From a virus, in the IMG/VR virus record IMGVR_UViG_3300009157_000001, positions 62,635 through 126,634 of that record: a stretch of DNA of 64,000 nt, one strand, 5' to 3'. Below the pieces are notes generated by a model. The model was not told the origin of the DNA. It saw nothing but the letters and a program-made list of their open reading frames with translations, and ran no database searches. Every line of letters starts with the position of its first letter. The first letter of the stretch is position 1. This document shows positions 11,814-26,232 of the stretch, in pieces. Made by a program: the position numbers and the translations under genes.

Positions 11814-11853
11814 GGTTTTATTGGTTTTTAGAGTTACAAATATAATAAATTTC

Positions 11854-12581: not shown

Positions 12582-12669
12582 ATAGAAGATCTATTATTTT
12601 GTATAAGGAGAAACCTCCTAAAACTAAGAGAAAGGCTCCTAAGAGATAAGTGAGAATCTTCTTCTTCAT
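12508..12669 (-). CDS. Small membrane protein
   Basis: MKKKILTYLLGAFLLVLGGFSLY hydrophobic helix; start overlaps the upstream stop. Confidence 0.6.
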   Translation of the reverse strand: MKKKILTYLLGAFLLVLGGFSLYKIIDLLYEKIGAKDVPAKSSETYTNHGHYE

Positions 12670-12908: not shown

Positions 12909-13010
12909 TGTCTTTTATTTATATGTTGGTAATAGGGGATTTGGGGAGACCAGGATCATTCCTGGTCCTCCTCCCCTTGTCTGGAAACTCTGCCTAGTAA
13001 GAAAGTTATC

Positions 13011-13268
13011 TCAGTTCTTTCTTTCTTGTTCCCTTCTTTTCCTCCTTTTAGCCCGCCCTCCTTCTGGAGAAACATAAGGTTCTACCAGAGATTCGAGTTT
13101 CTGTATTACAAAAGGTTTTGGAGGTTCTACTGATATATTTGGTAGAAAAGACTTCATGTCCTCGGGTTTTACTAGGATCACAGAAGTTGTATCCATCCCA
13201 GCAGCTTTTAACTTGGAGAGGATGTCTGAACCATCTCCGTGGTCTATTAAAATGATCTTATTTTCCAT
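13011..13268 (-). CDS. Hypothetical protein with Arg-rich C-terminus
   Basis: 85-aa ORF. Confidence 0.65.
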   Translation of the reverse strand: MENKIILIDHGDGSDILSKLKAAGMDTTSVILVKPEDMKSFLPNISVEPPKPFVIQKLESLVEPYVSPEGGRAKRRKRREQERKN

Positions 13269-13400
13269 CTCTTCTTTTTTTATAGATTTCTACATCCTTG
13301 GGTGTTGCAGGTTTTATGTCTTCTGTACTGGCAAGATGAGATATAACTCCATATAGAGTGATTACTCCTTGCCAGACTACTATTTCTTGTTGGGAATAAC

Positions 13401-13664
13401 TCATATCCTTTTCAGTATCTGAGGTTTTATTATACTCTGAAGTGCAAATTCAAAAGTATGAGGACTTTCTCTCATATAATGTACATTGATTTTATGTTTG
13501 GTAATAAGCATGGCTCTTAGATAAGTTTGATAAGGACCGTGTGTTGTGATAAATTTCTCTCTTTTACCCATATTCTCTTCTACCCAGAAATTTATCTTGT
13601 CTCCTTCTGCAATATCCCAACCAAACACACACCTATCCTCAATAGGATCATAGGTTTTGATCAT
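13401..13664 (-). CDS. PVFG-motif family paralog (cluster 1)
   Basis: DPIEDRCVFGWDIAEGD. Confidence 0.8.
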   Translation of the reverse strand: MIKTYDPIEDRCVFGWDIAEGDKINFWVEENMGKREKFITTHGPYQTYLRAMLITKHKINVHYMRESPHTFEFALQSIIKPQILKRI

Positions 13665-13887
13665 ATCTTTTTATCATTTTGGGTTCAGTTACTTGTTTGA
13701 ATCTAATTGTCTCATATGTAGTAAAAGACAATGAAGGGGAAAGATAAAGTAGTTCATTTGAAAGTTTATATACATACCCAGTTCTGGGAAATCCTATTAC
13801 CATACCAGATACAGTAATTATCACCTGATCTCCTTTTTGTACATCCCATCCAAATATTGCATGGCTATTAAGTGGTTCCTCAGTCAT
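13648..13887 (-). CDS. PVFG-motif family paralog (cluster 1)
   Basis: EPLNSHAIFGWDVQKGD. Confidence 0.8.
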   Translation of the reverse strand: MTEEPLNSHAIFGWDVQKGDQVIITVSGMVIGFPRTGYVYKLSNELLYLSPSLSFTTYETIRFKQVTEPKMIKRYDQNL

Positions 13888-14197
13888 GTATTTTGAAATT
13901 AATTATGTTCTGAGTAACATAGATCTTGGACATGTTGGGTTTACTTCCATTAAAAGACATCACATTTATATAGAAATCTGATACCTCTGACATAAACAGA
14001 CCTTGTATATGTTCTACCTCATCTATATAATCCCCGGGTGCATGTTTCCACCTCTTAGTAATATAGTCAAAGGATACCCTGGCATGCTTAAAAATATCTA
14101 TTCCAAATAGAGGGAAGTCCTCTATAGGGTCTGGGAATATATAAGGATTATTCTTTAGAGTTACATGGTTCTTATCTACTCTTTCTGTAAGATTCAT
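13880..14197 (-). CDS. PVFG-motif family paralog (cluster 1)
   Basis: DPIEDFPLFGIDIFKHA. Confidence 0.8.
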   Translation of the reverse strand: MNLTERVDKNHVTLKNNPYIFPDPIEDFPLFGIDIFKHARVSFDYITKRWKHAPGDYIDEVEHIQGLFMSEVSDFYINVMSFNGSKPNMSKIYVTQNIINFKIHD

Positions 14198-14415
14198 AGT
14201 CTTCTTATTGATAAACAGTCTTCTATACGAATTATGTTGAGCGGATCTTTGAAATAAAAGAACTGATCAGACCCCAGTTTTATTGACATGAAGATCCCCA
14301 CAAAGGGAGGATTCTCTCCCAAAGAGTTATCTCCAGATTTAAAAACAATAACTTTTTCTCTATCCTCAATATCCACACCAAATACTGGTTTATAATCAAG
14401 ACTCTCTTTTTCCAT
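14194..14415 (-). CDS. PVFG-motif family paralog (cluster 1)
   Basis: ESLDYKPVFGVDIEDRE. Confidence 0.8.
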   Translation of the reverse strand: MEKESLDYKPVFGVDIEDREKVIVFKSGDNSLGENPPFVGIFMSIKLGSDQFFYFKDPLNIIRIEDCLSIRRL

Positions 14416-14656
14416 AGACCCAAGATTTACCTATATGATATACACCTATATTTCTTGACCTGTAGACTCTTCTGTTATGTGTTCTCATATCTGTAATTAC
14501 TACAGTTGTTTCAAGTCCCTTTTTATAAATATGATGAATCCTCCCTGTTACGAGACTGACACCATTTCCCACATGAACAAACTTCACAAAGTCTCCGGGT
14601 TCCGCTTCTGCTCCAAATACTGGCTTTCTTTCTAGAGGTTCAAGTACCTCTTCCAT
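14396..14656 (-). CDS. PVFG-motif family paralog (cluster 1)
   Basis: EPLERKPVFGAEAEPGD. Confidence 0.8.
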   Translation of the reverse strand: MEEVLEPLERKPVFGAEAEPGDFVKFVHVGNGVSLVTGRIHHIYKKGLETTVVITDMRTHNRRVYRSRNIGVYHIGKSWVYGKRES

Positions 14657-14876
14657 ATACCCTCCTTAGTTTTGTGATCCGTGTTTTAGCAAAATGTTTC
14701 ATACTAGGAAAATCATGAGGATCTATCTCTATTATACCAAACTCAACTCTCAGAAAGTTCCCTCTATGAGAAGTTCTGCCGGCATGGCTTAGGTAGATAA
14801 ACTCTATGACCTCTCCTTTTTCAAAATCCAGCTCAAATACTGGTCTGTTTTCAATAGGATCTTGGAGCTTATTCAC
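14640..14876 (-). CDS. PVFG-motif family paralog (cluster 1)
   Basis: DPIENRPVFELDFEKGE. Confidence 0.8.
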   Translation of the reverse strand: MNKLQDPIENRPVFELDFEKGEVIEFIYLSHAGRTSHRGNFLRVEFGIIEIDPHDFPSMKHFAKTRITKLRRVYGRGT

Positions 14877-15135
14877 TCTCTCTTTTTAAGTTTCTTATTC
14901 GAATCTTACTAAATTCATAGAGCCCTCCGGACAAGGCACTTCCTTCTTTTGTACTTACCAGCAAAGAGGAAGTTTTTACTTCATGTAACAATCCTACCCA
15001 AGGATCATAACGACTTCTACCAGCAAAGGTCTCACTAAATGTGATTAACTCTCCCCATTCAAGATCACAACCAAATACATCTACTAATTCCAATGGTTCA
15101 ACATCATCAAATATTCTTACTTGGTGATAATTCAT
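14869..15135 (-). CDS. PVFG-motif family paralog (cluster 1)
   Basis: EPLELVDVFGCDLEWGE. Confidence 0.8.
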   Translation of the reverse strand: MNYHQVRIFDDVEPLELVDVFGCDLEWGELITFSETFAGRSRYDPWVGLLHEVKTSSLLVSTKEGSALSGGLYEFSKIRIRNLKRESE

Positions 15136-15395
15136 TTTGCTGGAAAAGTAGTCACAGTAATGTTCTCAGCACAGACTTTCTGCCGGAGTCCAAGCATATT
15201 GACAAAATCCACACATCTCTCTGACTGAAAGATAATACTATCTGCAGTATACACATTCTGAGTCTGGTTATCATAAGCTTCAATCAGATAGAGTGAACTG
15301 GACTGATACCCTTTTGTATCCAGTCTTATTGATAATGCTGCTACATATACTACACAGAGTAATGTTATGAATCCTATAATCAGTTTTCTTCTCAT
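15132..15395 (-). CDS. Small membrane-anchored or secreted protein
   Basis: N-terminal hydrophobic helix. Confidence 0.7.
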   Translation of the reverse strand: MRRKLIIGFITLLCVVYVAALSIRLDTKGYQSSSLYLIEAYDNQTQNVYTADSIIFQSERCVDFVNMLGLRQKVCAENITVTTFPAK

Positions 15396-15659
15396 ATCTT
15401 CTTAGTTTTAAGTTTGTTATTCAGATCTCCCCAAGCTTTTGAGGATTGTTCTCCCCACCAGTATCTTATCCATCTGTATTTGAGAGGATGAAATAAGGGA
15501 AGGAAGAACCTTAAAATTCTCAAAGTTATCATCATCTATGGTTTTTACATTGGTATGAATGAAGCTGCGTACACTACTACTAGCAGTATTAATAAGACTT
15601 TACATTCTTGTAGTCCTAGTCTCCTTTTACCAATGCTATCAAATCTACTTGTAGGCATA

Positions 15660-15820
15660 GTCGACGCAGTGTGTTTCAACATGCCGCCTTTGCTTCTTTC
15701 GTTGCAATTACTCTCCTTACATTACAAGCCGCCCCTTTAGAAGGCTAGAGATGATTTCATAATCCTCCAGGGCCGTCCCGCTACACACTTGAAGTTATCT
15801 TTGTGTATAGGAGGGACATT
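15660..15820 (-). ncRNA. Putative structured RNA
   Basis: GC-rich intergenic stretch with consecutive hairpins, e.g. GTCCC..CTATACAC/GTGTGTAG..GGGAC. Confidence 0.5.
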
Positions 15821-15835
15821 CCTTAGAGGTGTTTC

Positions 15836-16279
15836 TTATTTGAGCTTTGCCAGTTTCTGGGTAAGAAGAGCCATCCGGTCATCTTTGTCCATCAATTCTG
15901 TGTACTCCTTCTTGATGGCAGTAAGCTCCTCAAGTCTTTCTTTGTTCTCAATAATGGCAATCCTGAGCTGGATATCCTGTTTGTAGTCATCCAGAGAGAA
16001 TCCATTTATCTTGAACTCAGGCACTGTTGTAAGTTCAAGGATCTGCTGAGATTCATCATAAGCTTTCTTCCGGGCAAGTACTGATGAGAACATCTTTATG
16101 AGCTCCATCACATTTGTCTCAGTCTCAATACTGTTGGAAAACCCATCCAGTTTACCTGAGGTCCTGTATACCTTGTCCTGAATATGCTTAAGTGCCTCAA
16201 TCTTCTGATTGACAATCTCAATTCCTGATACAACACTTGTTACAGTCTGTACTCCTGTTTCTTCTTTTTTCTCTTGCAT
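15836..16279 (-). CDS. Hypothetical helical/coiled-coil protein
   Basis: 147-aa ORF with a strong A-rich leader. Confidence 0.8.
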   Translation of the reverse strand: MQEKKEETGVQTVTSVVSGIEIVNQKIEALKHIQDKVYRTSGKLDGFSNSIETETNVMELIKMFSSVLARKKAYDESQQILELTTVPEFKINGFSLDDYKQDIQLRIAIIENKERLEELTAIKKEYTELMDKDDRMALLTQKLAKLK

Positions 16280-16305
16280 GATTATTATTGGTTTTAGTTA
16301 TTGAT

Positions 16306-16557
16306 TTAGAAAATTGTGTATGTTTCTAGTTTTGGTGATTCTTCAAGAAGAGGTGCCCATTTCCCACCACTATAGATATATCCTGCACCAGCATCTATAC
16401 GAAGAGGGTTCTTATCTAGAACTCGTACATCTCTAGATGTTGTAGTAATATTATGAGGACTTACATCAAGTACCCTCCCATGTCCATTCATATAATAATG
16501 TTTGGTACCTTTTGGGTATCTTCTCTGAGCTTCTTTTATTATCTCTTCTTCAGTCAT
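16306..16557 (-). CDS. YxIF-tail family protein
   Basis: Starts MTEEEIIKEAQRRYPKGT, ends LETYTIF. Confidence 0.8.
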   Translation of the reverse strand: MTEEEIIKEAQRRYPKGTKHYYMNGHGRVLDVSPHNITTTSRDVRVLDKNPLRIDAGAGYIYSGGKWAPLLEESPKLETYTIF

Positions 16558-16559
16558 AA

Positions 16560-16802
16560 TTAGAATATTTTGTATGATTCCACATCAGGGATTATCTTTG
16601 CCCATTCTCCATTATTATAGATCCTGGCATTACATCCTGTATTTATTCTAAACCAGAGTTCACTGGTATTACCTGAACCTTGGCATCTGGTACTATCTAT
16701 AATCTTACCAAAATACTGCCTGGGATTAAAAGTAGAGATTACAAAAACTCCTGTATTGTATCCTCTTGCATGTGCTTCCCTTATAAGTTCTTCTTTAGTC
16801 AT
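16560..16802 (-). CDS. YxIF-tail family protein
   Basis: Likely start MTKEELIREAHARGY at 16802; ends VESYKIF. Confidence 0.8.
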   Translation of the reverse strand: MTKEELIREAHARGYNTGVFVISTFNPRQYFGKIIDSTRCQGSGNTSELWFRINTGCNARIYNNGEWAKIIPDVESYKIF

Positions 16803-16806
16803 GATC

Positions 16807-17079
16807 CTAGAATATTTGATATAATTCAAGTTTTGGTAGTTGAGCAACTTCAGAAATCACCGCCCATTGTTCTTTGTAATAAATTATCTCTGAGAAGTCA
16901 TGTCCATTCTTTGTCATATCACCACTGCTTTCCTGAATAGCAGAATCAGTCAAATAAAACCTTTCTGGATCATATACTGTACATATCCTATCTCTGGCAG
17001 GACCAAGATGAACTGGGAAATATTTAGTCCCAGCAGGATATCTCCTTCGGGCTTCTTCAAGTAATTGCTTTTCATCCAT
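16807..17079 (-). CDS. YxIF-tail family protein
   Basis: Starts MDEKQLLEEARRRYPAGT, ends LELYQIF. Confidence 0.8.
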   Translation of the reverse strand: MDEKQLLEEARRRYPAGTKYFPVHLGPARDRICTVYDPERFYLTDSAIQESSGDMTKNGHDFSEIIYYKEQWAVISEVAQLPKLELYQIF

Positions 17080-17082
17080 GAC

Positions 17083-17328
17083 TTAAAAGATTTTGTAAGT
17101 TTCTACTTTATCTTTATGACATACTTCAGCCCAAACCCTATTGCGATTACTATAAAGATTTGCAGTATCAATAACCCAAACTTCACCGTCCCTATCTATA
17201 TAGATCCTAGGCTCTCTCTTAGATGTGTATACTGAGGCTGATAATTTTCCACTAACCTGAACTGGTCTAAATCTGGTTCCTTCTGGAAACCTTCTTCTGG
17301 CCTCATCTAATAATTCCTGTTGGTTCAT
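17083..17328 (-). CDS. YxIF-tail family protein
   Basis: Starts MNQQELLDEARRRFPEGT, ends VETYKIF. Confidence 0.8.
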   Translation of the reverse strand: MNQQELLDEARRRFPEGTRFRPVQVSGKLSASVYTSKREPRIYIDRDGEVWVIDTANLYSNRNRVWAEVCHKDKVETYKIF

Positions 17329-17331
17329 AGT

Positions 17332-17652
17332 CTAAAAGATTTGATAGTTTTCTAATGGGGAAGAGATGTCTTGACTATCAGGTCTTGGTACTAACTTATT
17401 AGCTCTTATACAGAGCTCTAACCAGTACTTCTCTGAAACAGAAGCCAAGGTGATTTTTCTTTCCCCATAGTAAGGGGTACTTTTCTCAAAACAAAAGTCC
17501 TCTCCACCTCTCATATTGCTTAGGCAGTATGAGTCTTCAAATCTGTTACGACCATCATGAGAACCAGAAAATCGAGTGATTGTATAAGTGGGATCTGTTT
17601 CATGATTTATCCTATAAAACTCTCCTTTGATACAGTCTTTTGCATTTATCAT
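17332..17652 (-). CDS. YxIF-tail family protein
   Basis: Ends LENYQIF; ITLASVSEKYWLELC resembles IRLATPGEIERLEIC in 18257-18553. Confidence 0.8.
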   Translation of the reverse strand: MINAKDCIKGEFYRINHETDPTYTITRFSGSHDGRNRFEDSYCLSNMRGGEDFCFEKSTPYYGERKITLASVSEKYWLELCIRANKLVPRPDSQDISSPLENYQIF

Positions 17653-17654
17653 GA

Positions 17655-17897
17655 TTAAAAGATTTTATAGGTTTCCATATGAATTTCTTGTGTTTCCTGA
17701 ACCAGGATAAAATTATCAGGGTCCCATCCCATACTGCTGCCCACTTCTTCTCTTGTTCCTAGTACACATATCCTCACATTACCTATGTCCTCCTGATCAT
17801 AAAGAACTCCATATATATTTCCCCTAAGCATACCTCTATCCGACCTATCCGGTCCTTTGTGTCTTTTTATTACATCTCCTTTTTTGAATAGTCTCAT
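17655..17897 (-). CDS. YxIF-tail family protein
   Basis: Starts MRLFKKGDVIKR, ends METYKIF. Confidence 0.8.
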   Translation of the reverse strand: MRLFKKGDVIKRHKGPDRSDRGMLRGNIYGVLYDQEDIGNVRICVLGTREEVGSSMGWDPDNFILVQETQEIHMETYKIF

Positions 17898-17900
17898 GGT

Positions 17901-18149
17901 TTAGAATATTTTGTAGGTTTCCAAACAATTATACTTAGATTCTAGCTCAAAGTAAGATGCTTCCCAGCTGCCATTAGCTCTTCCTGTATTTATAATAGGA
18001 ATCCCTGTAAGATCTTCTACTATTACATCACTAGCTGATATTTGGTCGAATCTCACAATATAAGTAACTCCTATAAACATTCCTTTTGAAGGATTAACAT
18101 GACCCTGATGAACCCTAACAATACGATCTCCTTTCTTGAATATTGACAT
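17901..18149 (-). CDS. YxIF-tail family protein
   Basis: Starts MSIFKKGDRIVR, ends LETYKIF. Confidence 0.8.
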   Translation of the reverse strand: MSIFKKGDRIVRVHQGHVNPSKGMFIGVTYIVRFDQISASDVIVEDLTGIPIINTGRANGSWEASYFELESKYNCLETYKIF

Positions 18150-18256
18150 AGTTCTTTGTTTTTAGTAAATAAAAGATAAAGTTCCGGGAGTGGTTTAAAC
18201 TCTTCAACCAGACTCACACTGGTCCCGGATCTTCTGCATAGGCATCTGTAATTTCT

Positions 18257-18553
18257 TTATATTGTGTACCTTTCTAATGACTCTACTGGATCAATAAATC
18301 TCCCAGCTCTTTCACATATTTCCAGTCTTTCAATTTCTCCCGGGGTAGCAAGTCTTATGGTAGTTACCTGATTTGGAGAACTTGATCCTTTTGTAGTAAA
18401 ATCAGTAAACCGACCTGAAAGAGTTATACGTAAAAAAGTATCTTTATCTGGTGGGATGAATCTACTTATATATCCTTTCTTACCATTACCAAGATCAACA
18501 TAAGGTATCTGATAATACACTTTTCCTGGTATTAGCTTATTATATGGGATCAT
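18257..18553 (-). CDS. YxIF-tail family protein (tag lacks the final F)
   Basis: Ends LERYTI. Confidence 0.75.
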   Translation of the reverse strand: MIPYNKLIPGKVYYQIPYVDLGNGKKGYISRFIPPDKDTFLRITLSGRFTDFTTKGSSSPNQVTTIRLATPGEIERLEICERAGRFIDPVESLERYTI

Positions 18554-18816
18554 ATCTCATCTTGTTTTGGACAGAAACATCCTTCCTCACATCCTATCTC
18601 CCGGCATCTCCAAATACCTCCATCCTGTCTCTTTGCTACAAGAAGGATAGCTCCATGTATCTTACAAGCAGGATACTCTCCCGGGGCCAAAGGGAAGTAC
18701 TGATTGAATACTTTCCCTTCAGTTACTGATCTTACCCCTATAAATCCAGGTTGGTACTTGTACCCAGGGGTTTGTTCTATATCCATAAGTACCCGAGACT
18801 TAATTGATTCTTCCAT
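18550..18816 (-). CDS. Hypothetical protein with Cys/His-rich C-terminus
   Basis: CKIHG...CREIGCEEGC. Confidence 0.7.
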   Translation of the reverse strand: MEESIKSRVLMDIEQTPGYKYQPGFIGVRSVTEGKVFNQYFPLAPGEYPACKIHGAILLVAKRQDGGIWRCREIGCEEGCFCPKQDEI

Positions 18817-18845
18817 ACTACCAGTTTTTTAAATAAGTAAATATA

Positions 18846-19137
18846 CTCTTCCCAAATGCAGTTGCGGATCAGAAGTAAATCTTCACCGGCAGAGGCATTT
18901 GGTAATGAACCCTTTATCCTTCTGACCAGGATTTCCGGTTAGCCCTGGACCCTTGGTACGCCCAACAGTCTATGTTGAACCCCTTACCTAAGACAAGATG
19001 GGAAGAGCAATTTCCTTATGATAGTCTGACTTCCACAGACAGCAGGCCTTAGTATCCTGGTATCATAAATAAGTTTTGGCAGCCAGGTCAGGACTGGTGC
19101 TTCCTGGATGACCTCTCAACAATGAGGATACTGCCAA
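18846..19137 (-). ncRNA. Array of three closed structured RNA domains
   Basis: Terminal inverted repeats at 18846-19007, 19016-19068 and 19076-19137; no ORF. Confidence 0.6.
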
Positions 19138-19143
19138 TATTTT

Positions 19144-19569
19144 TTAACTATTAAGCCATCTTGTGTAACTGATGGATAAGAACCTCTCTGTTATTAATCT
19201 GGCAGTACTCTCCTCTTTAAAGTAGCAGCCACCCGGACGGCAAGAACCGTCACGATCGCAATACACAGCATACAGTACCCAGCCAGAGGCAGTTTTTCTA
19301 AACCAAGGATAATACTTGGGAGTATTATCAGTAAAATCTGCCTTCCAGATCCTGTAACCATTATCCAGATAGTTGGCAGCTTTTATAATAGCTCTGATCT
19401 CCTCATCAGGTGAAGGTGAAACTTTTGGTTTCTCTTTCAGGATCTTAACTGCACTTTTATAAGAGATGAGACTATCCATTCCTTTATCATCCTTCTCAAT
19501 TATCTTTCTGAGTGCTAGAGCTTCTGCATCCAGAGCATCCATACGTTTTAGTGTTTCTTTTCTGTTCAT
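19144..19569 (-). CDS. Phage protein resembling Bacteroidota DGR target proteins
   Basis: IIKAAN..WKADF..KYYPWF..[variable]..CYFKEESTA..F; NNY-rich codon block at 19219-19290. Confidence 0.65.
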   Translation of the reverse strand: MNRKETLKRMDALDAEALALRKIIEKDDKGMDSLISYKSAVKILKEKPKVSPSPDEEIRAIIKAANYLDNGYRIWKADFTDNTPKYYPWFRKTASGWVLYAVYCDRDGSCRPGGCYFKEESTARLITERFLSISYTRWLNS

Positions 19570-19582
19570 GTCTTATGGGTTT

Positions 19583-20155
19583 TTAAATGAGATTTAGTTT
19601 ATCTATAGCACTCTTCATATCATTATCTGTGAGTCCTGTCTCACTACTGGTTTTTATAAACCAAGGAGCCTGCTCTAAGAGCATATCTGCATCATCATCC
19701 AAAATAATATAAACAAAGTCCTTTCCTAGTTTATTTGAGAACATCTTCTTGAATGATTGATCTTCTTTAAATTCCTTATAAAGATGATCTAATTCCGGAT
19801 TAGCATGCCAAGGGTAGACCAAATGTCTATCTATCCAGTGTTTTATCTCAACTCCCCGGGGAATAGGTAAAGAGCTTCCTTTCTTAGTCTCTGTATACCC
19901 ATGGACTGTGATTCCTATAATCTCATCCCAAAGATCCTGAGGGAAACCGTGTTTGTCAAACTGCTCTTTCATAAGAGTGGAGTCACTGCACCGCCAGGAG
20001 GATGATACCACAATCTTGGCACCGGTCTGCTGGATTATATATTTTAACCTTTCCATACACAAGACATCAAACATATTGTAGGGAGGAATATTGACTACTC
20101 CATCTATGTCCAAGAATATGATCTTTGCAGGGAGTCCTCCGGTTATTGTTTTCAT
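19583..20155 (-). CDS. HAD-superfamily protein (Swiss-Army-Knife RNA-repair-like HAD domain)
   Basis: IIFLDIDGV, IVVSSSWR, RGVEIKHW and YIILDDD motifs. Confidence 0.85.
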   Translation of the reverse strand: MKTITGGLPAKIIFLDIDGVVNIPPYNMFDVLCMERLKYIIQQTGAKIVVSSSWRCSDSTLMKEQFDKHGFPQDLWDEIIGITVHGYTETKKGSSLPIPRGVEIKHWIDRHLVYPWHANPELDHLYKEFKEDQSFKKMFSNKLGKDFVYIILDDDADMLLEQAPWFIKTSSETGLTDNDMKSAIDKLNLI

Positions 20156-20173
20156 GACCTTGGTATTTGTAAT

Positions 20174-20395
20174 TTAATGATTTACAGGAATTATACCTCT
20201 GGGAAAGTAATGAAGGGAAGCTTCTACTCTTTCTTCTGAGTAATCAGTACCAAACTGCCCTCCAAAATACTCAAATGCGAGTTTTCTTCCTTCCTCATAG
20301 TCCTTACACTGAATAGAAGCAATACAGTCTTTATCAAAGGTTTTGCCATTTACAGAATGAGTATGGATTTGTCCAAAGCTTATGTATAGTTTCAT
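20174..20395 (-). CDS. Hypothetical phage protein
   Basis: 73-aa ORF. Confidence 0.7.
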   Translation of the reverse strand: MKLYISFGQIHTHSVNGKTFDKDCIASIQCKDYEEGRKLAFEYFGGQFGTDYSEERVEASLHYFPRGIIPVNH

Positions 20396-20625
20396 GGTCT
20401 GATAATTTTAAATTGGGTTATGTGTCTCTTTATGTATACAGTTATCCCTTCATCTGATGTATCCAGGCCTATATAGAAAGAAGTATTCTTGTCCAGTTGA
20501 CCCGAAACAACCTGGTCATTATAACAAAACTGTACATATCTTGGAGGTTCCCAGTCTATTCCAAATACCGGACGATCTTCCAGGACCTCAGCATGTTTCT
20601 TTTTACCCCAGAAATCCTCATCCAT
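20392..20625 (-). CDS. PVFG-motif family paralog (cluster 2)
   Basis: EVLEDRPVFGIDWEPP. Confidence 0.8.
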   Translation of the reverse strand: MDEDFWGKKKHAEVLEDRPVFGIDWEPPRYVQFCYNDQVVSGQLDKNTSFYIGLDTSDEGITVYIKRHITQFKIIRP

Positions 20626-20818
20626 AAGAACCTACCATATCAAGTCTCAGATTGCCTTGTACTATGGTTTCTTCCGGACTCTGTCCTTTAAGAGCACTGG
20701 GATATAAATACACGGATTCTACTCCAAGTAATTGGACAGAACAGTACCGGGTTCCAAACTTACAATCTTTGTACATCTTCCCATTTGGGGCTATGTAGTA
20801 CTTAGTTGGTTGGTTCAT
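20618..20818 (-). CDS. Hypothetical protein
   Basis: 66-aa ORF overlapping both neighbours. Confidence 0.6.
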   Translation of the reverse strand: MNQPTKYYIAPNGKMYKDCKFGTRYCSVQLLGVESVYLYPSALKGQSPEETIVQGNLRLDMVGSYG

Positions 20819-21066
20819 GATCTTAGTATTTTAAAGTTGGTTATATGGTCTATATCAAACACCATCAGTCTTTTTTGATCTCTAACAAAACTATGATCTG
20901 TCACAAAAATGTACAAGTACTTTTGTGTCTTGTTGAAACCATTTATCTGTCCTGAAACAAATCTCTGATCGTGATAAAGATAAGTAAAAGCAACTTTCTC
21001 AGCTATCTGAATATCAATTCCAAATACAGGATCTTTGTCCAGAGGTTCCTTTTTCATCTTCTCCAA
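20815..21066 (-). CDS. PVFG-motif family paralog (cluster 2)
   Basis: EPLDKDPVFGIDIQIAE. Confidence 0.8.
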   Translation of the reverse strand: MEKMKKEPLDKDPVFGIDIQIAEKVAFTYLYHDQRFVSGQINGFNKTQKYLYIFVTDHSFVRDQKRLMVFDIDHITNFKILRS

Positions 21067-21260
21067 ACTTCAAAATCAGAAACTATAGTAGCAGAACAAC
21101 TTATAAGAGGACTTGCTGTATGTAGATACATATCTTTTTCATGATAATATTGAAAGGTTGCCTCACAGTATCCATGTCCTTTGATACGAAAGTTTATGAG
21201 TTCTCCTCTTTCAGCATCTATTCCGAATATAGATCTTTCCTCTAGTGGTTCCTTCTCCAT
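21054..21260 (-). CDS. PVFG-motif family paralog (cluster 2)
   Basis: EPLEERSIFGIDAERGE. Confidence 0.8.
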   Translation of the reverse strand: MEKEPLEERSIFGIDAERGELINFRIKGHGYCEATFQYYHEKDMYLHTASPLISCSATIVSDFEVWRR

Positions 21261-21691
21261 CTTTGAGACAGCATCTTCTTAATTCGGGGCTCCAAAGAAT
21301 TCCTGATTGCTTTTGCAATCAAAGTTCGGATGTCTCTATTCTGAGCCCTTGAGTAAAGTCTGTCTACTGCATTAGCTATTTGCCGGGCAGATAAATTCTT
21401 TCTCTTGAGTATCTCTACCGGGTGGGTAATTTTGCCATAGTCTTGGTTCTTTAGTTTAAACCTCAAATATAAAGTATCACCTGACATGTGAGCAACCATC
21501 AGATCAGGGTTCTTGGAATTCTTACTGATCTCAGGAAACTCTTCTGGTAGATCTATTATATAGGTTGAATCGGTTACCTGGTTGTAGATCTTACCATTGG
21601 AATTCCACTCTCTATGCTCATATCCTGTCAAGTAACTTAGTATAATAACAAGCATAACACATGTGGATAAAAAGACATAAGGGATTTTCAT
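21242..21691 (-). CDS. Membrane-anchored hypothetical protein
   Basis: N-terminal hydrophobic helix. Confidence 0.65.
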   Translation of the reverse strand: MKIPYVFLSTCVMLVIILSYLTGYEHREWNSNGKIYNQVTDSTYIIDLPEEFPEISKNSKNPDLMVAHMSGDTLYLRFKLKNQDYGKITHPVEILKRKNLSARQIANAVDRLYSRAQNRDIRTLIAKAIRNSLEPRIKKMLSQRWRRNH

Positions 21692-21716
21692 AGTGAGTTG
21701 GTTTTTAGAGTTAGAC

Positions 21717-22148
21717 TTACAGAAGATTCAAAGCATGTTCTATTGCAATATTGAGTATTGCATATCGGTCACCGGCTCCCAGATCATCTGCAGGCCCAGG
21801 TTTTGGTTTTCCTACTTGCCAGATGAAAGCACGATAACAAGGAGTATTTACACTAGTATTTTCTCCCCATCCATCTATTATAAGTTCAATATAGATCCCT
21901 TTGGTTTCTAACCAGTCAAGAACCTGTTGGTAAAAGGGAGCAGAAATTACAGTTCTATGTGTATCTCTTATCCAGTTTGTACTTGAATTAGTATAAGTCC
22001 TCCATTCACTATCAGTATCCTCATATTCAACACATTCCTGTTTATTATTAAGAAGATGGCCATTTACATACTCTGCTATACAAGGTTTATCAAAACCCTT
22101 TTTCTTAACTAAAAGAGCCAGCCTGTGTGGAATAAATAAATGTTTCAT
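21717..22148 (-). CDS. Hypothetical phage protein (LVKKKGFD..C; SAPFYQQVLDWL)
   Basis: 143-aa ORF; pattern recurrent in Bacteroidota phages. Confidence 0.75.
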   Translation of the reverse strand: MKHLFIPHRLALLVKKKGFDKPCIAEYVNGHLLNNKQECVEYEDTDSEWRTYTNSSTNWIRDTHRTVISAPFYQQVLDWLETKGIYIELIIDGWGENTSVNTPCYRAFIWQVGKPKPGPADDLGAGDRYAILNIAIEHALNLL

Positions 22149-22160
22149 GTTCTTAGTTTT

Positions 22161-22790
22161 TTAGAATAGTAAAGGTAATAATCTGTCAATTCCTAAAGCA
22201 AATCCAATCCCTCCATCATATTGTCCTCCACCACATACTTGTTTGGAGGACCCTAGAGAATCACAGATGATCTCAAAGCCCTTACCTTCCTTGTAATAGT
22301 CCAAGCCTCGGGTTACCTCATAGTTTATCTTGAATAGATCTAACTGGAAGCTTGTATCAAGTAGTCTCATTGCAGCTACATGTATTGCATCATACAAATC
22401 TGTAGGGTTAAGTATCTCAACTCCTAATTGTGTAAATTGTCTATATCTCCCAGCCTGGGGTTTTTCACCTCTAAAACACTCCTGGACATAAAACAACTTC
22501 ACATTCTTCTGGTCCTTAAAGTAAGTACCTGCTAATTTCTGTATTACTGCAGTATATTCAGGTGCTAGGCACAAGCCCCGGTCTCCCCGGTCTTTAAAGT
22601 TGTACATAAGGTTATTGTTCTCTTCTCCTACTTTACCAGAAAAGGTTCCTTGGTGTTGTATAATAGGAACTGAGATCTCAGTAAATCCATCTCCGATTAA
22701 GAGAGCAACCATTCTTTGGATCATCTCTCTCTTTTTATTACCTAGAAGGATCCTGGTGCCTTTGTAGCATGTCTCTTTGATTTCTTTCAT
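22161..22790 (-). CDS. Histidyl-tRNA-synthetase-like catalytic core only (209 aa)
   Basis: KGTR, LAPEYT, motif 2 FRGEKPQAGRYRQFTQLGVE, RGLDYY, GGGQYD, motif 3 GFALGIDRL; no anticodon-binding domain. Confidence 0.85.
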   Translation of the reverse strand: MKEIKETCYKGTRILLGNKKREMIQRMVALLIGDGFTEISVPIIQHQGTFSGKVGEENNNLMYNFKDRGDRGLCLAPEYTAVIQKLAGTYFKDQKNVKLFYVQECFRGEKPQAGRYRQFTQLGVEILNPTDLYDAIHVAAMRLLDTSFQLDLFKINYEVTRGLDYYKEGKGFEIICDSLGSSKQVCGGGQYDGGIGFALGIDRLLPLLF

Positions 22791-22812
22791 ACTTAATAAT
22801 TTAAGTTAAAAA

Positions 22813-23417
22813 CTCTGATTAGGTTATCTACCCAGGCCAAACCTGGAAAACTCATATAAGTGTGAGTACAACTATCCATGTTACCACAGATATTTCTGTT
22901 TATCACCAATAGATTCTTTATCTCAGAGCAAGCTCTTATAATAATCTTCTGTGCTTCTGCTGCAGTAGTTTAGAATGGGAACCCGGTATCTCAACCGGTA
23001 TTTATCATTCCACCACTTCTGGTTGCCTATGGTTAACCCTAAGACTTAAGGCTTTAACGGGTGTTTTAAGTCTTTTTGCATTGCTGCCCTACAGCAGAAG
23101 ACACAGAAGATTTTGTACATTCCCAACAATCAAGGTTGTTTACACCCAGCTCTCCAGCTAGAGAGCACTACTGTGCTAATAAATAGTTGAGTCTTTTAGA
23201 TTGTTGGGTATCTACATAAAAAGCTGCCGGTATTCCTTCAAGCATCAGGGTTCTTTTGAAACCACTGACATCGGGCCTGATCCACTGCCGGCTACATACC
23301 CAGTGGAGGAAATAAAAGATGACTGAGGGCATATGCCTGCTTTTTGCCCAGGTAATGACGCTTTTTCAATAGAAAAGACCATATCGTCTTTTGGTCTTGC
23401 AGTCCCTTTTCAGTCAT
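22813..23417 (-). ncRNA. Array of about five closed structured RNA domains
   Basis: Closing stems at 22813-22928, 22943-23112 (20 bp), 23122-23208 (10 bp), 23226-23307 and 23319-23417 (8 bp). Confidence 0.65.
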
Positions 23418-23422
23418 ATATC

Positions 23423-23695
23423 TTAATGATTTGTTGCCCAGATGTGTGGACAAAGACCATGCCCTGGATATTCTCTCCAGGAAATTCTCTTTATAATCCA
23501 GAACCCTTCTGTCCATTCTTTTCCAGAACTTCCGGTCTTATCTCCCGGTTGAAAGGATTTAGTAATATACTTGGTTATATCACAAGCCCATACCTCATCT
23601 TCCTTACTTGGAATCTGTGGAAAAGGCCAGTCTACCTCAAAGGTAGCAACATCCGAGGAAGAGTCCAGTTTTATAACTTTGAATATTATCTTCAT
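23423..23695 (-). CDS. Hypothetical protein
   Basis: 90-aa ORF. Confidence 0.65.
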   Translation of the reverse strand: MKIIFKVIKLDSSSDVATFEVDWPFPQIPSKEDEVWACDITKYITKSFQPGDKTGSSGKEWTEGFWIIKRISWREYPGHGLCPHIWATNH

Positions 23696-23700
23696 AGTAG

Positions 23701-23952
23701 TTAGGTATTAGTGAAGTTTTCAAGATCTAGTATGTAACTAACTATATACATCCTCTCATCAATATTCAGAGTCCGAGAATCTGTCCCTCCTATTAGTTTA
23801 GCTACTACAAGGGATCTTTCTAACCCACTCTGAACCAGATGATTTATAAATGCAGTGTTACTCTTGTCAAGTTTTTCTTTTATCTCATGATCAAAAGGAA
23901 CCTGGGTAGATGAAATAACCTTTCTCCAATAATTTAAGTCTTTCATGTTCAA
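23701..23952 (-). CDS. Hypothetical protein
   Basis: 83-aa ORF. Confidence 0.65.
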   Translation of the reverse strand: MNMKDLNYWRKVISSTQVPFDHEIKEKLDKSNTAFINHLVQSGLERSLVVAKLIGGTDSRTLNIDERMYIVSYILDLENFTNT

Positions 23953-24377
23953 TAGTTTTGGGGGATTAGATACTCGAGTTTTTCATCTATATAAATCTTA
24001 TAGTCCTGGTTACCATGAAGTTGGCATCCCTGGGATATTGTATAAGTCACTTTCTTACCTAATTTAGTAGAAAGCCGGTTTATCCAGGTTGTAATACTGA
24101 AAGAAAAGTCTTTAATCTTACATTCAGTCCGGACTATCTCAAAAGAACCTCGGGTATCAGTCTCCAGAGAGATTCTATTAGCCGAGGACCTTATACATTT
24201 GTACCAATTCCCACCGTATAATACCTTCTCCTCTTTTAGTCTATGAGCAGAGCACTCACTTTTCTGAGGTACCCGGAGTCTTCCTGTTTCCAGGAAGCAC
24301 TCAGAATACTGTTCACCTAATAAAGCTTTGAAAGTTGTATACATAGTTTCTTGGTTATTTGAGTTCTCCGGAGGCAT
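23949..24377 (-). CDS. Hypothetical protein
   Basis: 142-aa ORF overlapping neighbours. Confidence 0.65.
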   Translation of the reverse strand: MPPENSNNQETMYTTFKALLGEQYSECFLETGRLRVPQKSECSAHRLKEEKVLYGGNWYKCIRSSANRISLETDTRGSFEIVRTECKIKDFSFSITTWINRLSTKLGKKVTYTISQGCQLHGNQDYKIYIDEKLEYLIPQNY

Positions 24378-24675
24378 GGATAACCTTTCCTTCCAGTATC
24401 ATTTTGACAGGTACAAAATAGAAGGATATACAGTCTTTAGACTGGGTAGTGAGAGTTAAGAAGCTCTCATCCGGTATGAGTCCTTCAGGTATTTCCTGTA
24501 TATATTTTTGATCTTCTTCATCATCCTTGCCTTCTGCAGAACCTCCAATTTGATAAGTTTCATCATTAAACTTGTGGAAGAATACCCACCGGTCTTTTGT
24601 ATTGAACAGAAGAGAGAATATCCCATTAGGATGTTCCATTATCCGGTAACCGGTTACTTGCTTAGAGTTTTTCAT
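24355..24675 (-). CDS. Hypothetical protein
   Basis: 106-aa ORF. Confidence 0.65.
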   Translation of the reverse strand: MKNSKQVTGYRIMEHPNGIFSLLFNTKDRWVFFHKFNDETYQIGGSAEGKDDEEDQKYIQEIPEGLIPDESFLTLTTQSKDCISFYFVPVKMILEGKVIHASGELK

Positions 24676-24962
24676 GATTTAGTAAGTTTGTTTAGTTTCT
24701 TTTGAAGACTTTCCTGGAGTTTGCCCTGGAACTCATCTATATATGCTACTGCCTTCTCATAAGCAGTCCATGGATCCTTGTATGGGGTAACCAGGACACT
24801 ACCATGATGGTTATATCTTTTCTGAGATCCCCGGGAACCACTCATATGCCTGAGCAGGATATGTTTACCAGTTTGAGTAACATGAAAGATCTTGTACTGG
24901 GGCTGGGCCCCGGAAGTAACCTGGATCTTATACTCCTTGTAAAGGTGCTCTCTTATAATCAT
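24672..24962 (-). CDS. Hypothetical protein
   Basis: 96-aa ORF. Confidence 0.65.
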   Translation of the reverse strand: MIIREHLYKEYKIQVTSGAQPQYKIFHVTQTGKHILLRHMSGSRGSQKRYNHHGSVLVTPYKDPWTAYEKAVAYIDEFQGKLQESLQKKLNKLTKS

Positions 24963-25347
24963 AAGTAGTAGAGTTTAAGAGGTTAGTTATAAATGACCCA
25001 ATCTAATCATTTGAGCAATGTCCGGATCCACATCCTTAAGCAAGTTCTCCATAGCTGCTCTTATCCCATCATTCCACATTACCTCATCCCCGGTTTGTTC
25101 AGACCCCGGATCTCCCACTATCTGAGACCTAAGAGATCTATACTTAATAAGTAATTGTATTATAGGTATAGAGTATTAAAGAAGTTAGTAATAAGAAGGT
25201 GTGCTATATACTGCGCCCAAAACCCATGATTTGAGTGGTTTTGGGGGTTTTGAGGAGTTAGAGGAAGGGGGAGAGGGAGGGTCTGCCCTCATATTCTCAC
25301 CTTCTTTTCCCCCAAAATGAAGGAATTTCCCGGTAAAACACCCAGAC

Positions 25348-25581
25348 TCACTCTATCTTCTTACTAGTTCTCCTTATATATACCAGTTCTGAGTAGGTGA
25401 AGTATGCTGGATAAGCTACTGTGGTAGTATAATACTTATATATATCCACCACTATATCCTTATTATATAAGTGATTTACTCTTCCTTTATATAATCCGGT
25501 TATTACTTTGATCTCAACCTCTTCTCCCGGGTCTATTCCTATACCAAATACAGGTTTAGTATCTATATCTTCTGATTTCAT
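25348..25581 (-). CDS. PVFG-motif family paralog (cluster 3)
   Basis: EDIDTKPVFGIGIDPGE. Confidence 0.8.
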   Translation of the reverse strand: MKSEDIDTKPVFGIGIDPGEEVEIKVITGLYKGRVNHLYNKDIVVDIYKYYTTTVAYPAYFTYSELVYIRRTSKKIE

Positions 25582-25583
25582 GG

Positions 25584-25811
25584 TTATAATCTCCTGATCT
25601 TAAGTAATTCATAATTAGTAAATAACCAGGCCTCCTTTACTTCCGGTCTATCCTGTAGTTTTACAAGTAAAGATATGTCCTTACCATAACATCTATATAC
25701 ACTTCCCCGGACTATCTTGTCTACTGTGGTTACTTGTACCTGGGTACGAAGTTCATACTCCATCCCGAAGACCGGTCTATCCTCAATGGGATCATTACCA
25801 AATGTTGTCAT
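25584..25811 (-). CDS. PVFG-motif family paralog (cluster 3)
   Basis: DPIEDRPVFGMEYELRT. Confidence 0.8.
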   Translation of the reverse strand: MTTFGNDPIEDRPVFGMEYELRTQVQVTTVDKIVRGSVYRCYGKDISLLVKLQDRPEVKEAWLFTNYELLKIRRL

Positions 25812-26050
25812 GGATCTATCCGGGTTATACTCCTTATATTCTCTATATCTATTCTTCTGCTACCTCCAAGGTTAGGAGGAATATCATAGAGTATCAAATA
25901 AGACTCTCTTATATAGTATATAATACCCTGGAGTTCTTCACCATAATGTATCTGGCTATCTCTTATCTGTATATCTACCATATCCCCTGGTCCATATCCT
26001 ATACCAAAGATAGGGCCCAGGTCTATGTACTCATCTGAAAATGCATTCAT
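25808..26050 (-). CDS. PVFG-motif family paralog (cluster 3)
   Basis: EYIDLGPIFGIGYGPGD. Confidence 0.8.
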   Translation of the reverse strand: MNAFSDEYIDLGPIFGIGYGPGDMVDIQIRDSQIHYGEELQGIIYYIRESYLILYDIPPNLGGSRRIDIENIRSITRIDP

Positions 26051-26198
26051 ATCTTCTTGGTTATCAAGTTAAAACCGGTAGGTGTACCAGTGACATATCT
26101 ACTCCAACATTTTTACTCTTACCCCAACTCACAATGCAGGGTAGCCTTGTGTGGGAGCGCATTGTGTGTGGAGGGTTGCCAATGAGATACCAGGAAGA

Positions 26199-26232
26199 GG
26201 AAAAGGGAGAGGTTTTCCCCTCCCCTTATTCC
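26199..26232 (-). terminator. Probable intrinsic terminator
   Basis: Minus strand AAGGGGAGG-GGAAAA-CCTCTCCCTTTT downstream of 26248-26634. Confidence 0.6.

What the first reader, a model, noticed from the sequence alone, without database searches (positions are those of the whole stretch)
13401..26050. Thirteen paralogous small proteins with a shared N-terminal PVFG motif, in clusters of 7+3+3
Seen: 13 ORFs of 68-105 aa (13401-15135 x7; 20392, 20815, 21054; 25348, 25584, 25808) carry [DE]P[LI][ED]xxP[VI]FGx[DE]xxx(G[DE]) near the N-terminus. It is followed by about 55 divergent residues with a conserved spacing (V.F/V...G.[VIL]...I.[IV]...[FY]...I..[IFL]..[IL]). The seven cluster-1 genes all overlap one another, implying translational coupling. 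Inference: the spacing fits a five-stranded Sm/Hfq-like or SH3/KOW beta-barrel. Sm/LSm proteins are known to form 6- or 7-membered RNA-binding rings. Seven coupled paralogs in a genome arm full of structured RNAs suggest a phage-encoded hetero-oligomeric RNP system. The alternative is a family of effectors docking on a common partner through the motif. I do not recognise a named family.
Basis: partly seen in the sequence, partly recalled or inferred. Interest (0 to 1): 0.88.

Follow-up and report, generated by a model that had tools for sequence, protein, structure and literature searches.

The report
Orphan phage family of small barrels
An uncultured crAss-like phage carries thirteen diverged copies of a tiny protein seen nowhere else, each a short conserved acidic arm on a fast-changing small beta-barrel; they are probably binding modules that share one docking handle, but their targets are unknown.

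Summary
The 13 minus-strand ORFs (68-105 aa, clusters of 7+3+3) are real and form one family: leave-one-out profiles recover 13 of 13. The N-terminal motif is kept at protein level with synonymous codon variation. Detectable similarity sits almost entirely in the first ~25-30 residues. Predicted structures of 3 of 13 members give a five-stranded SH3/Sm-type small beta-barrel. Their weak neighbours are uniformly Sm/LSm/Hfq, WYL and Tudor. The family has no relative in 1.84 billion representative proteins, none in 10 related phage genomes and none in any named family. It lies in a 24-kb replaceable interior of the phage's small-gene arm. A hetero-heptameric RNA-binding ring has no support. My best reading (0.4) is a lineage-specific battery of small binders sharing a docking arm. 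The scan has noted tagged small-paralog arrays in other phages, but not this family on other DNA.

The parts
13401..13664 (-). family member, 87 aa (cluster 1)
   Evidence: ORF; leave-one-out E 4.6e-8; AF2 model pLDDT 62.8, all-beta
13648..13887 (-). family member, 79 aa (cluster 1)
   Evidence: ORF; leave-one-out E 2.9e-8
13880..14197 (-). family member, 105 aa, with a 22-residue extension before the motif (cluster 1)
   Evidence: ORF; not linked by pairwise phmmer but leave-one-out E 4.8e-4; N-module profile 34.8 bits
14194..14415 (-). family member, 73 aa (cluster 1)
   Evidence: ORF; leave-one-out E 1.9e-7
14396..14656 (-). family member, 86 aa (cluster 1); AAGGAGG 5 nt before the start
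   Evidence: ORF; upstream sequence; leave-one-out E 9.7e-8; ESM Atlas model neighbours WYL barrels
14640..14876 (-). family member, 78 aa, GTG start, Glu in place of the motif Gly (cluster 1)
   Evidence: leave-one-out E 1.9e-7
14869..15135 (-). family member, 88 aa (cluster 1)
   Evidence: ORF; leave-one-out E 1.5e-3; N-module profile 34.4 bits
20392..20625 (-). family member, 77 aa (cluster 2)
   Evidence: ORF; leave-one-out E 5.8e-9
20815..21066 (-). family member, 83 aa from TTG, or 80 aa from ATG at 21057 (cluster 2); the best-modelled member
   Evidence: ORF; the public gene call is the 80-aa form; leave-one-out E 7.1e-12; AF2 pLDDT 77.4, five strands
21054..21260 (-). family member, 68 aa (cluster 2)
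   Evidence: ORF; leave-one-out E 3.9e-10
25348..25581 (-). family member, 77 aa (cluster 3)
   Evidence: ORF; leave-one-out E 3.8e-11
25584..25811 (-). family member, 75 aa (cluster 3)
   Evidence: ORF; leave-one-out E 3.5e-9
25808..26050 (-). family member, 80 aa, most acidic (pI 4.3) (cluster 3)
   Evidence: ORF; leave-one-out E 8.2e-5; pI

Best explanation
These are thirteen real genes for an orphan, lineage-specific family of stand-alone small beta-barrel proteins. They are made from the replaceable accessory part of the leftward small-gene arm of a 126.6-kb crAss-like phage. Each protein has two parts. The first is a constrained, acidic N-terminal arm ([DE]-P-[LI]-[DE]-x-x-P-[VIL]-F-G-h-[DE]) that runs straight into strand 1 (G-[DE]-x-[VI]-x-h). 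The second is about 50 further residues that keep an SH3/Sm-type five-stranded barrel but have diverged to the level of shuffled sequence. I read the barrels as diversified binding surfaces, each for a different macromolecule or ligand of host or phage. I read the conserved arm as the common handle that plugs every paralog into one shared partner or machine. This is adaptor or effector logic, as in an adaptor with a docking peptide or in the T4 internal proteins with their shared targeting peptide. The likely role is host takeover or counter-defence. Shown: the genes, the family, protein-level constraint on the arm, saturation of the bodies, uniqueness to this genome and the accessory location. 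Predicted: the fold class, for 3 of 13 members. Inferred only: that the arm docks on a shared partner, that the bodies bind different targets, and the host-interaction role.
For: Family and motif. Constraint is confined to the N-module. N-module identity is 33.4% against 28.2 +/- 1.1% shuffled; bodies give 25.7% against 25.8 +/- 0.7%. Leave-one-out collapses once the N-module is removed (5 of 13, then 0 of 13 rank first). The N-module profile alone separates the 13 (32.0-41.7 bits) from every other frame of the genome (5.1 bits or less). In the best model the first 20 residues are coil (pLDDT 53-73) ahead of a confident barrel (blocks 85-87); this suits an exposed peptide. The N-module is acidic in all 13 (net -1 to -7), while bodies range from -3 to +9 and pI from 4.3 to 9.6, so surfaces are diversified. 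Accessory status: 0 of 10 related phage records carry the family, 6 of them at least 90% complete; the same tool finds 13 in the own genome. In relative G007 the genes bounding the arm interior are conserved (homologues of 1555-2025 and 26248-26634), but its 18.3-kb interior shares nothing at E<=1e-4 with the 24.2 kb here. G001 shows the same. Copies within a cluster are no closer than copies between clusters (33.6 against 33.3% for the N-module, 24.8 against 26.2% for the body), so the expansion is old and each copy has been kept. Fold class. Precedent for one shared N-terminal peptide on a diverse set of phage counter-defence proteins: passage seen in PMC3012670.
Against: No partner has been identified, and none can be inferred by co-occurrence because the family exists in one genome only. 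The arm could simply be a structural cap of the barrel; the models do not decide this. Without orthologues, selection on the bodies cannot be measured, so 'diversified' could be plain drift. Only 3 of 13 bodies were modelled, at moderate confidence (pLDDT 54-77). All structural matches are below the level the tools call clear (no Foldseek E<=1e-3; the VIA tool warns that Z under 8 may be only a common arrangement). No hit to known defence or counter-defence models (PADLOC 0 of 13). Early expression is inferred from position alone: cluster 3 lies 1-2.5 kb inside the leftward block that starts near 27-28 kb.
Confidence: 0.4

Rival explanations
1. Plain paralogs of one small nucleic-acid- or ligand-binding barrel. 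The N-terminal arm is a structural element (cap or first-strand lead-in), not a docking handle, and the copies are partly redundant and drifting.
For: The second half of the N-module (G-[DE]-x-[VI]-x-h) is strand 1 of the barrel in the model. The only conserved body residue is a Gly inside the long strand 2. The small-barrel survey describes such a pivot Gly followed by V/L/I as part of the fold's core (passages seen in 10.1101/140376). Structural neighbours are ssDNA- or RNA-binding barrels: DriD, CapW, Hfq, LSm.
Against: The most conserved residues (acidic-P-[LI]-acidic-x-x-P-[VIL]-F-G) lie before the barrel, in a low-confidence coil. Thirteen copies kept intact at saturation divergence argue against redundancy. 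Charge varies from -7 to +4 net, and several members are acidic; that is poor for a common nucleic-acid ligand.
Confidence: 0.2
2. One reading: the paralogs assemble into Sm-like hetero-oligomeric rings (seven from cluster 1) that bind the phage's structured RNAs.
For: The fold class matches Sm/LSm/Hfq and Gemin6/7. The top Foldseek row is a small subunit chain of the Mnx complex (9bxa_E, E 9.7e-3, TMq 0.62). The seven cluster-1 genes overlap. The arm holds RNA-related genes: HAD_SAK_2 and a 209-aa HisRS-like core. Other agents note tRNA-like RNAs (untested here).
Against: No Sm, LSm or Hfq sequence model is matched by any of 13 members at E<=1. The barrel, including the edge strands, is the unconserved part. 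There are 13 copies in three clusters with no closer kinship within clusters. Overlapping genes are general in this arm. The family is absent from 10 relatives, so it is not core machinery. No Rfam family or tRNA was found in the window.
Confidence: 0.08
3. The N-terminal motif is a virion-packaging or maturation-cleavage signal, like the T4 capsid targeting sequence. The proteins are loaded into the head and injected with the DNA.
For: The architecture is the same as for T-even internal proteins: one conserved N-terminal peptide on a diverse set of small proteins (passage in PMC3012670). crAss-like phages carry a virion RNA polymerase; a 3420-aa ORF is in this genome, and its identity as the polymerase comes from another agent's note. 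A motif of the same pattern sits inside head scaffolding proteins of other phages (54 of 58 pattern hits; phrog_237).
Against: The genes lie in the small-gene arm, not with the head genes. No prohead protease was recognised among the 6 structural-block ORFs scanned. The scaffold resemblance is one independent family picked out by a pattern written from the motif itself, and it scores only 8-11 bits. The distance from the start codon to the motif varies from 3 to 22 residues.
Confidence: 0.1
4. The arm is a recognition handle for a phage-encoded modifying enzyme (tag-plus-enzyme logic). Candidates in the same arm are a glycosyltransferase, a methyltransferase and the HisRS-like core.
For: A second tagged family (C-terminal E-x-Y-x-I-F) lies in the same arm. 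Enzymes are present nearby. The scan has described tag-plus-enzyme pairs in other phages (these are AI notes, untested here).
Against: No linkage can be shown. Flanks of 17 HisRS-like homologues in other phages hold no family member. No enzyme gene is adjacent to any of the three clusters.
Confidence: 0.07

Closest known systems
Sm / LSm / Hfq proteins
   Same: Size (60-90 aa). Predicted five-stranded bent barrel with a one-turn helix between strands 4 and 5, and a Gly in the long strand 2. VIA Z 7.9 to the EDC3 LSm domain (rmsd 2.5, 63 aligned), 7.5 to an archaeal Sm protein, 7.3 to an Hfq-like protein (rmsd 1.7, 57 aligned).
   Different: No match to Sm or Hfq sequence models (0 of 13 at E<=1). 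No confident N-terminal helix. The conserved part is a pre-barrel arm rather than the Sm1/Sm2 loops. Ring formation and RNA binding are untested.
WYL domains of defence-island regulators (BrxR, CapW, PafBC, DriD)
   Same: Recurrent structural neighbours in all four model searches. DriD gives Z 7.8, rmsd 2.1, 64 aligned. BrxR tops Foldseek for model 1 (E 0.13). 5 of 10 and 3 of 10 rows are WYL for the ESM Atlas models.
   Different: Stand-alone 68-105 aa proteins without HTH or WCX domains. No Pfam WYL match. Phage-encoded in 13 copies.
T-even phage internal proteins with a capsid targeting sequence
   Same: A diverse set of small phage proteins sharing only a short conserved N-terminal peptide, in a variable genome region; in T4 they counter host restriction (passage seen in PMC3012670).
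   Different: Here the three modelled bodies share a fold. No prohead protease was recognised. The genes are not with the head genes. Presence in virions is unknown.
SspB-type protease adaptors (small barrel plus short docking peptide)
   Same: Same architecture as my preferred reading: a small barrel that binds cargo plus a short conserved peptide that docks on a machine (this description of SspB is recalled, not from a call). SspB chains are among the top rows for model 1 (Z 5.3, rmsd 3.8, 80 aligned; Z 5.1).
   Different: The match is weak, comes from the low-confidence model only, and there is no sequence similarity. The docking peptide of SspB is C-terminal (recalled); here the arm is N-terminal.
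Arrays of small tagged paralogs in large phages (jumbo-phage arrays, T4 hyperplastic regions)
   Same: Many diverged copies of one tiny protein sharing a short terminal motif, in replaceable regions, function unknown (AI notes listed, untested here).
   Different: Those are other families with other motifs, mostly C-terminal and helical. This one is an N-terminal arm on a beta-barrel, in a crAss-like phage, and is confined to one genome.

Membership tests
Sm/LSm/Hfq | Five-stranded, strongly bent beta-barrel of SH3-like topology, with strands 4 and 5 joined by a short 3-10 turn | tested here: met
   On predicted models only. AF2 of 20815-21057 gives strands 21-26, 32-42, 47-52, 63-68 and 72-78, with a helix at 69-71; pLDDT 77.4. 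Neighbours are Sm/LSm/Hfq at Z 6.8-7.9. 3 of 13 members were modelled. Feature as described in 10.1101/140376 (passages).
Sm/LSm/Hfq | N-terminal alpha-helix before strand 1 | tested here: inconclusive
   Model 2 has no helix in residues 1-20 (pLDDT 53-73). Model 1 has a 4-residue helix at 7-10.
Sm/LSm/Hfq | Sm1/Sm2 sequence signature (match to the Pfam Sm or Hfq models) | tested here: not met
   0 of 13 members match any Sm or Hfq model at E<=1. The profile against PDB sequences gives a best E of 1.5.
Sm/LSm/Hfq | Hexameric or heptameric ring through pairing of strand 4 with strand 5 of the neighbour | not testable with these tools
   Needs SEC-MALS, native MS or a structure; see Tried and rejected for the one complex job.
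Sm/LSm/Hfq | RNA binding | not testable with these tools
Net charge ranges from -7 to +4.
WYL domain (PF13280) | Match to the WYL sequence model | tested here: not met
   0 of 13 at E<=1.
WYL domain (PF13280) | Sm-like small barrel similar to solved WYL domains | tested here: met
   DriD Z 7.8 (rmsd 2.1, 64 aligned), PafBC 7.7, CapW 7.5, BrxR 7.3. The tool cautions that Z under 8 can be a common arrangement.
WYL domain (PF13280) | Fusion to HTH and WCX domains in a regulator | tested here: not met
   Proteins are 68-105 aa with no further domain.
T4-type internal proteins (capsid targeting sequence) | Short conserved N-terminal peptide on otherwise dissimilar small proteins | tested here: met
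T4-type internal proteins (capsid targeting sequence) | Prohead protease that removes the peptide | tested here: inconclusive
   None recognised among 6 structural-block ORFs scanned with PHROGs or among the ORFs scanned with Pfam. Not every ORF of the genome was scanned.
T4-type internal proteins (capsid targeting sequence) | Presence inside virions | not testable with these tools
   Uncultured phage; no proteome.
Tag-plus-modifying-enzyme systems | Tagged genes co-occur with one enzyme gene across genomes | not testable with these tools
   The family is in one genome only, so co-occurrence cannot be scored. Flanks of 17 HisRS-like homologues hold no member.

The most novel reading that the evidence does not exclude
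The conserved N-terminal arm of each paralog docks on the barrel of another. The thirteen Sm/WYL-like barrels would then assemble into mixed rings or chains that bind the phage's own structured, tRNA-like RNAs, or soak up the single-stranded nucleic-acid signals that WYL-type defence regulators sense. That would be a phage-built, combinatorial Sm-like particle.
Probability: 0.07. Interest if true: 0.85.

Novelty: new variant of a known kind. Interest (0 to 1): 0.4.

Why it matters
If the reading holds, this would be a compact natural example of one docking peptide combined with many fast-evolving small-barrel binders in an environmental crAss-like phage. That group has essentially no characterised early or accessory proteins. 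Finding the shared partner would name a hub that the phage attacks or uses. The thirteen barrels would be a ready-made set of natural small binders. As it stands, it is an orphan family in a single uncultured genome, with a common fold and no testable partner. It is therefore of moderate interest, mainly as a well-defined target for expression and pull-down work.

Tried and rejected
Sequence searches that gave nothing:
- Megablast of 13401-21300 against phage records: no match.
- tblastn of one member against phage records at E<=1: no match.
- PHROGs for 10 of 13 members: nothing below E 0.069.
- Pfam for 13 of 13: best E 0.004, for a pb9 B-domain match below its cut-off.
- PADLOC: 0 of 13.
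- PDB sequences: best E 1.5.
- BFVD fold search: no row at E<=1e-3, only uncharacterised phage proteins.

The 5.8-billion-cluster search listed 7 proteins, all the window's own. It looked only at lengths 37-184 aa.

The 1.84-billion search gave 18 hits. Thirteen are the window's own proteins letter for letter. Five are 820-3915-aa repeat proteins that match only profile positions 13 to about 46, 5-17 times each. Two of these five were scanned; one holds Ig-like and cadherin-like domains (Big_9, Cadherin_4, Big_13), and the other reached no Pfam cut-off. I reject all five as a shared beta-hairpin pattern summed over repeats.

The pattern scan of IMG/VR with a degenerate form of the motif gave 58 loci. 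54 carry the motif inside 380-420-aa head scaffolding proteins. 0 of 58 have it near the start of a small frame. The best family-profile E was 0.13. I take this as one independent family and compatible with chance.

The profile-profile comparison with the neighbouring E-x-Y-x-I-F family gave probability 0.3%, so the two families are unrelated.

Sigma-70 promoter and terminator scans equal the shuffles (44 against 47.1 +/- 5.9; 11 against 10.8 +/- 3.2), so they carry no information.

Complex prediction on four adjacent cluster-1 proteins returned 'no answer' (score 0.00). This is no evidence either way.

The look-up of sequencing runs: none was listed and no RNA holder was listed.

The metagenome contigs and genome-contig scans were not used. 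Supplementary files were not needed.

Literature: 'PVFG motif' gave 0 papers. The crAss-like/early genes/small proteins/paralogs search gave listings only and nothing on such a family.

Not listed among VIA rows: no family other than small barrels dominated either list.

Full report
WHERE IT IS. The window is bases 62,635-126,634 of a 126,634-bp virus record with direct terminal repeats, estimated 100% complete. It is a crAss-like phage. The ORF at 43501-45117 matches the Crassvirus major capsid protein model (E 1.3e-29). Terminase and portal lie at 36551-41527. The nearest capsid protein in phage records is Leptolyngbya phage Lbo-JY46, at 27.9% identity. IMG/VR holds at least 599 stretches encoding a capsid protein; the 80 kept are 83-86% identical. 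Genes from about 27.2 kb down to the window start run on the minus strand, and the structural genes run rightward from 28.2 kb. The thirteen ORFs lie in this leftward small-gene arm. Cluster 3 sits 1-2.5 kb from the arm's start.

THE OBSERVATION. All 13 ORFs are present as described. Conserved Pro, Gly, Leu and Glu positions use several synonymous codons. The DNA copies of the motif region are only 60-76% identical. Conservation is therefore at protein level and not a product of recent duplication or gene conversion. Pairwise phmmer joins 12 of 13 at E<=1e-3. Leave-one-out profiles recover 13 of 13 against a background of 517 ORFs. The family profile finds exactly these 13 places in the genome. 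The cluster-1 genes overlap by 4-20 nt, but so do their non-family neighbours. From the coordinates, clusters 2 and 3 are packed the same way. One non-family ORF (20618-20818) is interleaved in cluster 2.

WHAT IS AND IS NOT CONSERVED. Similarity is concentrated in the first 25-30 residues. With the sequence cut after F-G, only 5 of 13 left-out members rank first. After cutting 12 residues more, none does. Body identity equals that of shuffled bodies (25.7 against 25.8 +/- 0.7%), whereas the N-module exceeds its shuffles (33.4 against 28.2 +/- 1.1%). A profile of the N-module alone scores the 13 at 32.0-41.7 bits and everything else in the genome at 5.1 bits or less. One Gly in the body is nearly invariant. 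Copies in the same cluster are no more alike than copies in different clusters, so the expansion is old and saturated. In the second cut, four members rank 2-6.

FOLD. AlphaFold2 with the 13-row alignment gave a weak all-beta model for 13401-13664 (pLDDT 62.8). It gave a usable one for 20815-21057 (pLDDT 77.4, pTM 0.62). That model has five strands, a one-turn helix between strands 4 and 5, and a coil for residues 1-20. The nearly invariant Gly (G36) lies in the long second strand. The small-barrel survey 10.1101/140376 (passages seen) describes three matching features: a pivot Gly in strand 2 followed by V/L/I, a 3-10 linker between strands 4 and 5, and neighbour pairing of strands 4 and 5 as the route to rings. 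Foldseek against the PDB gave no row at E<=1e-3 for either model. For the better model the best 50 rows are almost all small barrels: a small subunit chain of the Mnx complex (E 9.7e-3, TMq 0.62), Sm proteins, Tudor domains, Gemin6/7, Hfq, NusG and WYL. VIA-align against 48,161 chains gave these values:
- Z 8.0 for a mitoribosomal chain (9evs_1Q)
- Z 7.9 for the EDC3 LSm domain
- Z 7.8 for the DriD WYL domain
- Z 7.6 for the Mnx chain
- Z 7.5 for an archaeal Sm protein
- Z 7.3 for an Hfq-like protein
For the weaker model the values were Z 5.8 (a designed SH3-type barrel), 5.3 and 5.1 (SspB), 5.1 (DriD) and 5.0 (Hfq). The tool warns that Z under 8 may reflect only a common arrangement. Independently, the ESM Atlas's own models of 14396-14656 (pLDDT 0.54) and 20815-21057 (0.67) have WYL, YolD-like and DUF150_C neighbours at TM 0.55-0.74. 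I conclude that the bodies are SH3/Sm-type small barrels. Confidence is moderate, and only 3 of 13 members were examined. Sm, WYL and Tudor cannot be told apart at this level.

UNIQUENESS.
- The profile read against 1.84 billion representative proteins found 18 hits at E<=1e-3. Thirteen are the window's own proteins. Five are giant repeat proteins matched only over a hairpin-like stretch.
- The 5.8-billion-cluster search returned only the window's own proteins (7 listed).
- Ten related phage records were searched whole. They were chosen by capsid identity and by a more variable 439-aa structural-block protein (best 72% and 68%). 0 of 10 match at E<=1, and six of them are at least 90% complete.
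- A local scan of 97 fetched loci (722 kb) found nothing better than E 1.3.

THE ARM IS REPLACEABLE. In relative G001, both outer parts of the genome are collinear with this one at 30-85% protein identity. Window positions of about 1,000-33,000 have a single tblastn match. In G007 (128.8 kb, complete), homologues of 1555-2025 and 26248-26634 bound an 18.3-kb interior. That interior shares nothing at E<=1e-4 with the 24.2 kb here. Neither G001, G006 nor G007 has a comparable small-protein family. The family is thus accessory cargo of one lineage.

HOW IT MOST LIKELY WORKS. The anatomy is an exposed, acidic, constrained arm on a hypervariable small barrel, in 13 retained copies, within a replaceable arm. 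It best fits a set of diversified binders that share one docking handle (confidence 0.4). The N-module is acidic in all members (net -1 to -7), whereas the bodies range from -3 to +9. The nearest functional precedent is the T-even internal proteins. [quoted passage not shown] Adaptors built as a barrel plus a docking peptide (SspB; description recalled) are the nearest mechanistic picture.

RIVALS.
- The arm is merely structural (0.2).
- The arm is a packaging or cleavage signal (0.1).
- The proteins form an Sm-like hetero-ring RNP (0.08).
- The arm is a handle for a modifying enzyme (0.07).
None is excluded. The ring idea is weakened because the barrel, including its edge strands, is the unconserved part. 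No Sm or Hfq model is matched. The copy number is 13, and relatives lack the family.

NOVELTY AND SCORE. The phenomenon is known in kind: a lineage-specific array of tiny tagged paralogs in a phage's variable region (AI notes on other phages; T4 precedent). The fold class is common. The family itself, its N-terminal arm and its setting in a crAss-like phage are new. A search for 'PVFG motif' found no paper. I rate it a new variant of a known kind, with interest 0.4.

Noticed in passing
window 16306-18553 (minus strand): Eight tandem small ORFs end in E-x-Y-x-I-F (the last in ...Y-T-I). E, Y and I are invariant in the alignment. The family is unrelated to the PVFG family by profile-profile comparison (probability 0.3%). 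phmmer links only subsets of it (3 and 2 members). Other readers of this scan have already noted it.
   Followed up: partly
window 6191-6209, 11821-11839, 21698-21716 (minus strand): A 19-nt motif occurs three times with at most 2 mismatches, against 0.06 expected by chance. Each copy lies in a short gap between minus-strand genes. It is a candidate phage promoter or processing signal.
   Followed up: partly
window 25240-25345 and 26074-26225: Cluster 3 is flanked by non-coding stretches of about 200 nt. They hold G-run/C-run hairpins and terminator-like stems at 26225-26206 and 26091-26074, so the three genes may form their own transcription unit.
   Followed up: no
window 2025-26248, compared with G007 1953-20226: The interior of the small-gene arm (24.2 kb here, 18.3 kb in G007) is entirely different between related phages, while the genes on both sides are conserved. 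G001 shows the same.
   Followed up: partly
window 22161-22790 (minus strand): A 209-aa HisRS-like class II catalytic core without an anticodon-binding domain. Homologues at 57-71% identity occur in 17 IMG/VR contigs, including contigs of 482 kb and 676 kb.
   Followed up: partly
window 42866-43471 (plus strand): A 201-aa ORF matching a homing endonuclease family (phrog_314, E 9e-14) sits directly before the major capsid gene.
   Followed up: no
loci L088-L145 (IMG/VR): Head scaffolding proteins (phrog_237) of many aquatic phage contigs carry an internal acidic-P-I-D-L-S-P-I-F-G-acidic motif of the same pattern as the family's arm (54 of 58 pattern hits). This is probably coincidence.
   Followed up: partly
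window 6803-11034 (minus strand): A run of sugar-modifying genes: polysaccharide pyruvyl transferase (6803-7564), methyltransferase (8190-8783) and a 532-aa glycosyltransferase (9436-11034).
   Followed up: no
G001 91915-96238 (within L085): The relative G001 carries four tandem 266-526-aa proteins sharing an N-terminus of about 40 residues on different bodies. This looks like a set of exchangeable fibre or receptor-binding proteins.
   Followed up: no
window 45446-46915 (plus strand): The 489-aa protein after the capsid gene contains D-P-V-F-G-N-D at residue 83. The N-module profile does not match it at E<=10.
   Followed up: partly
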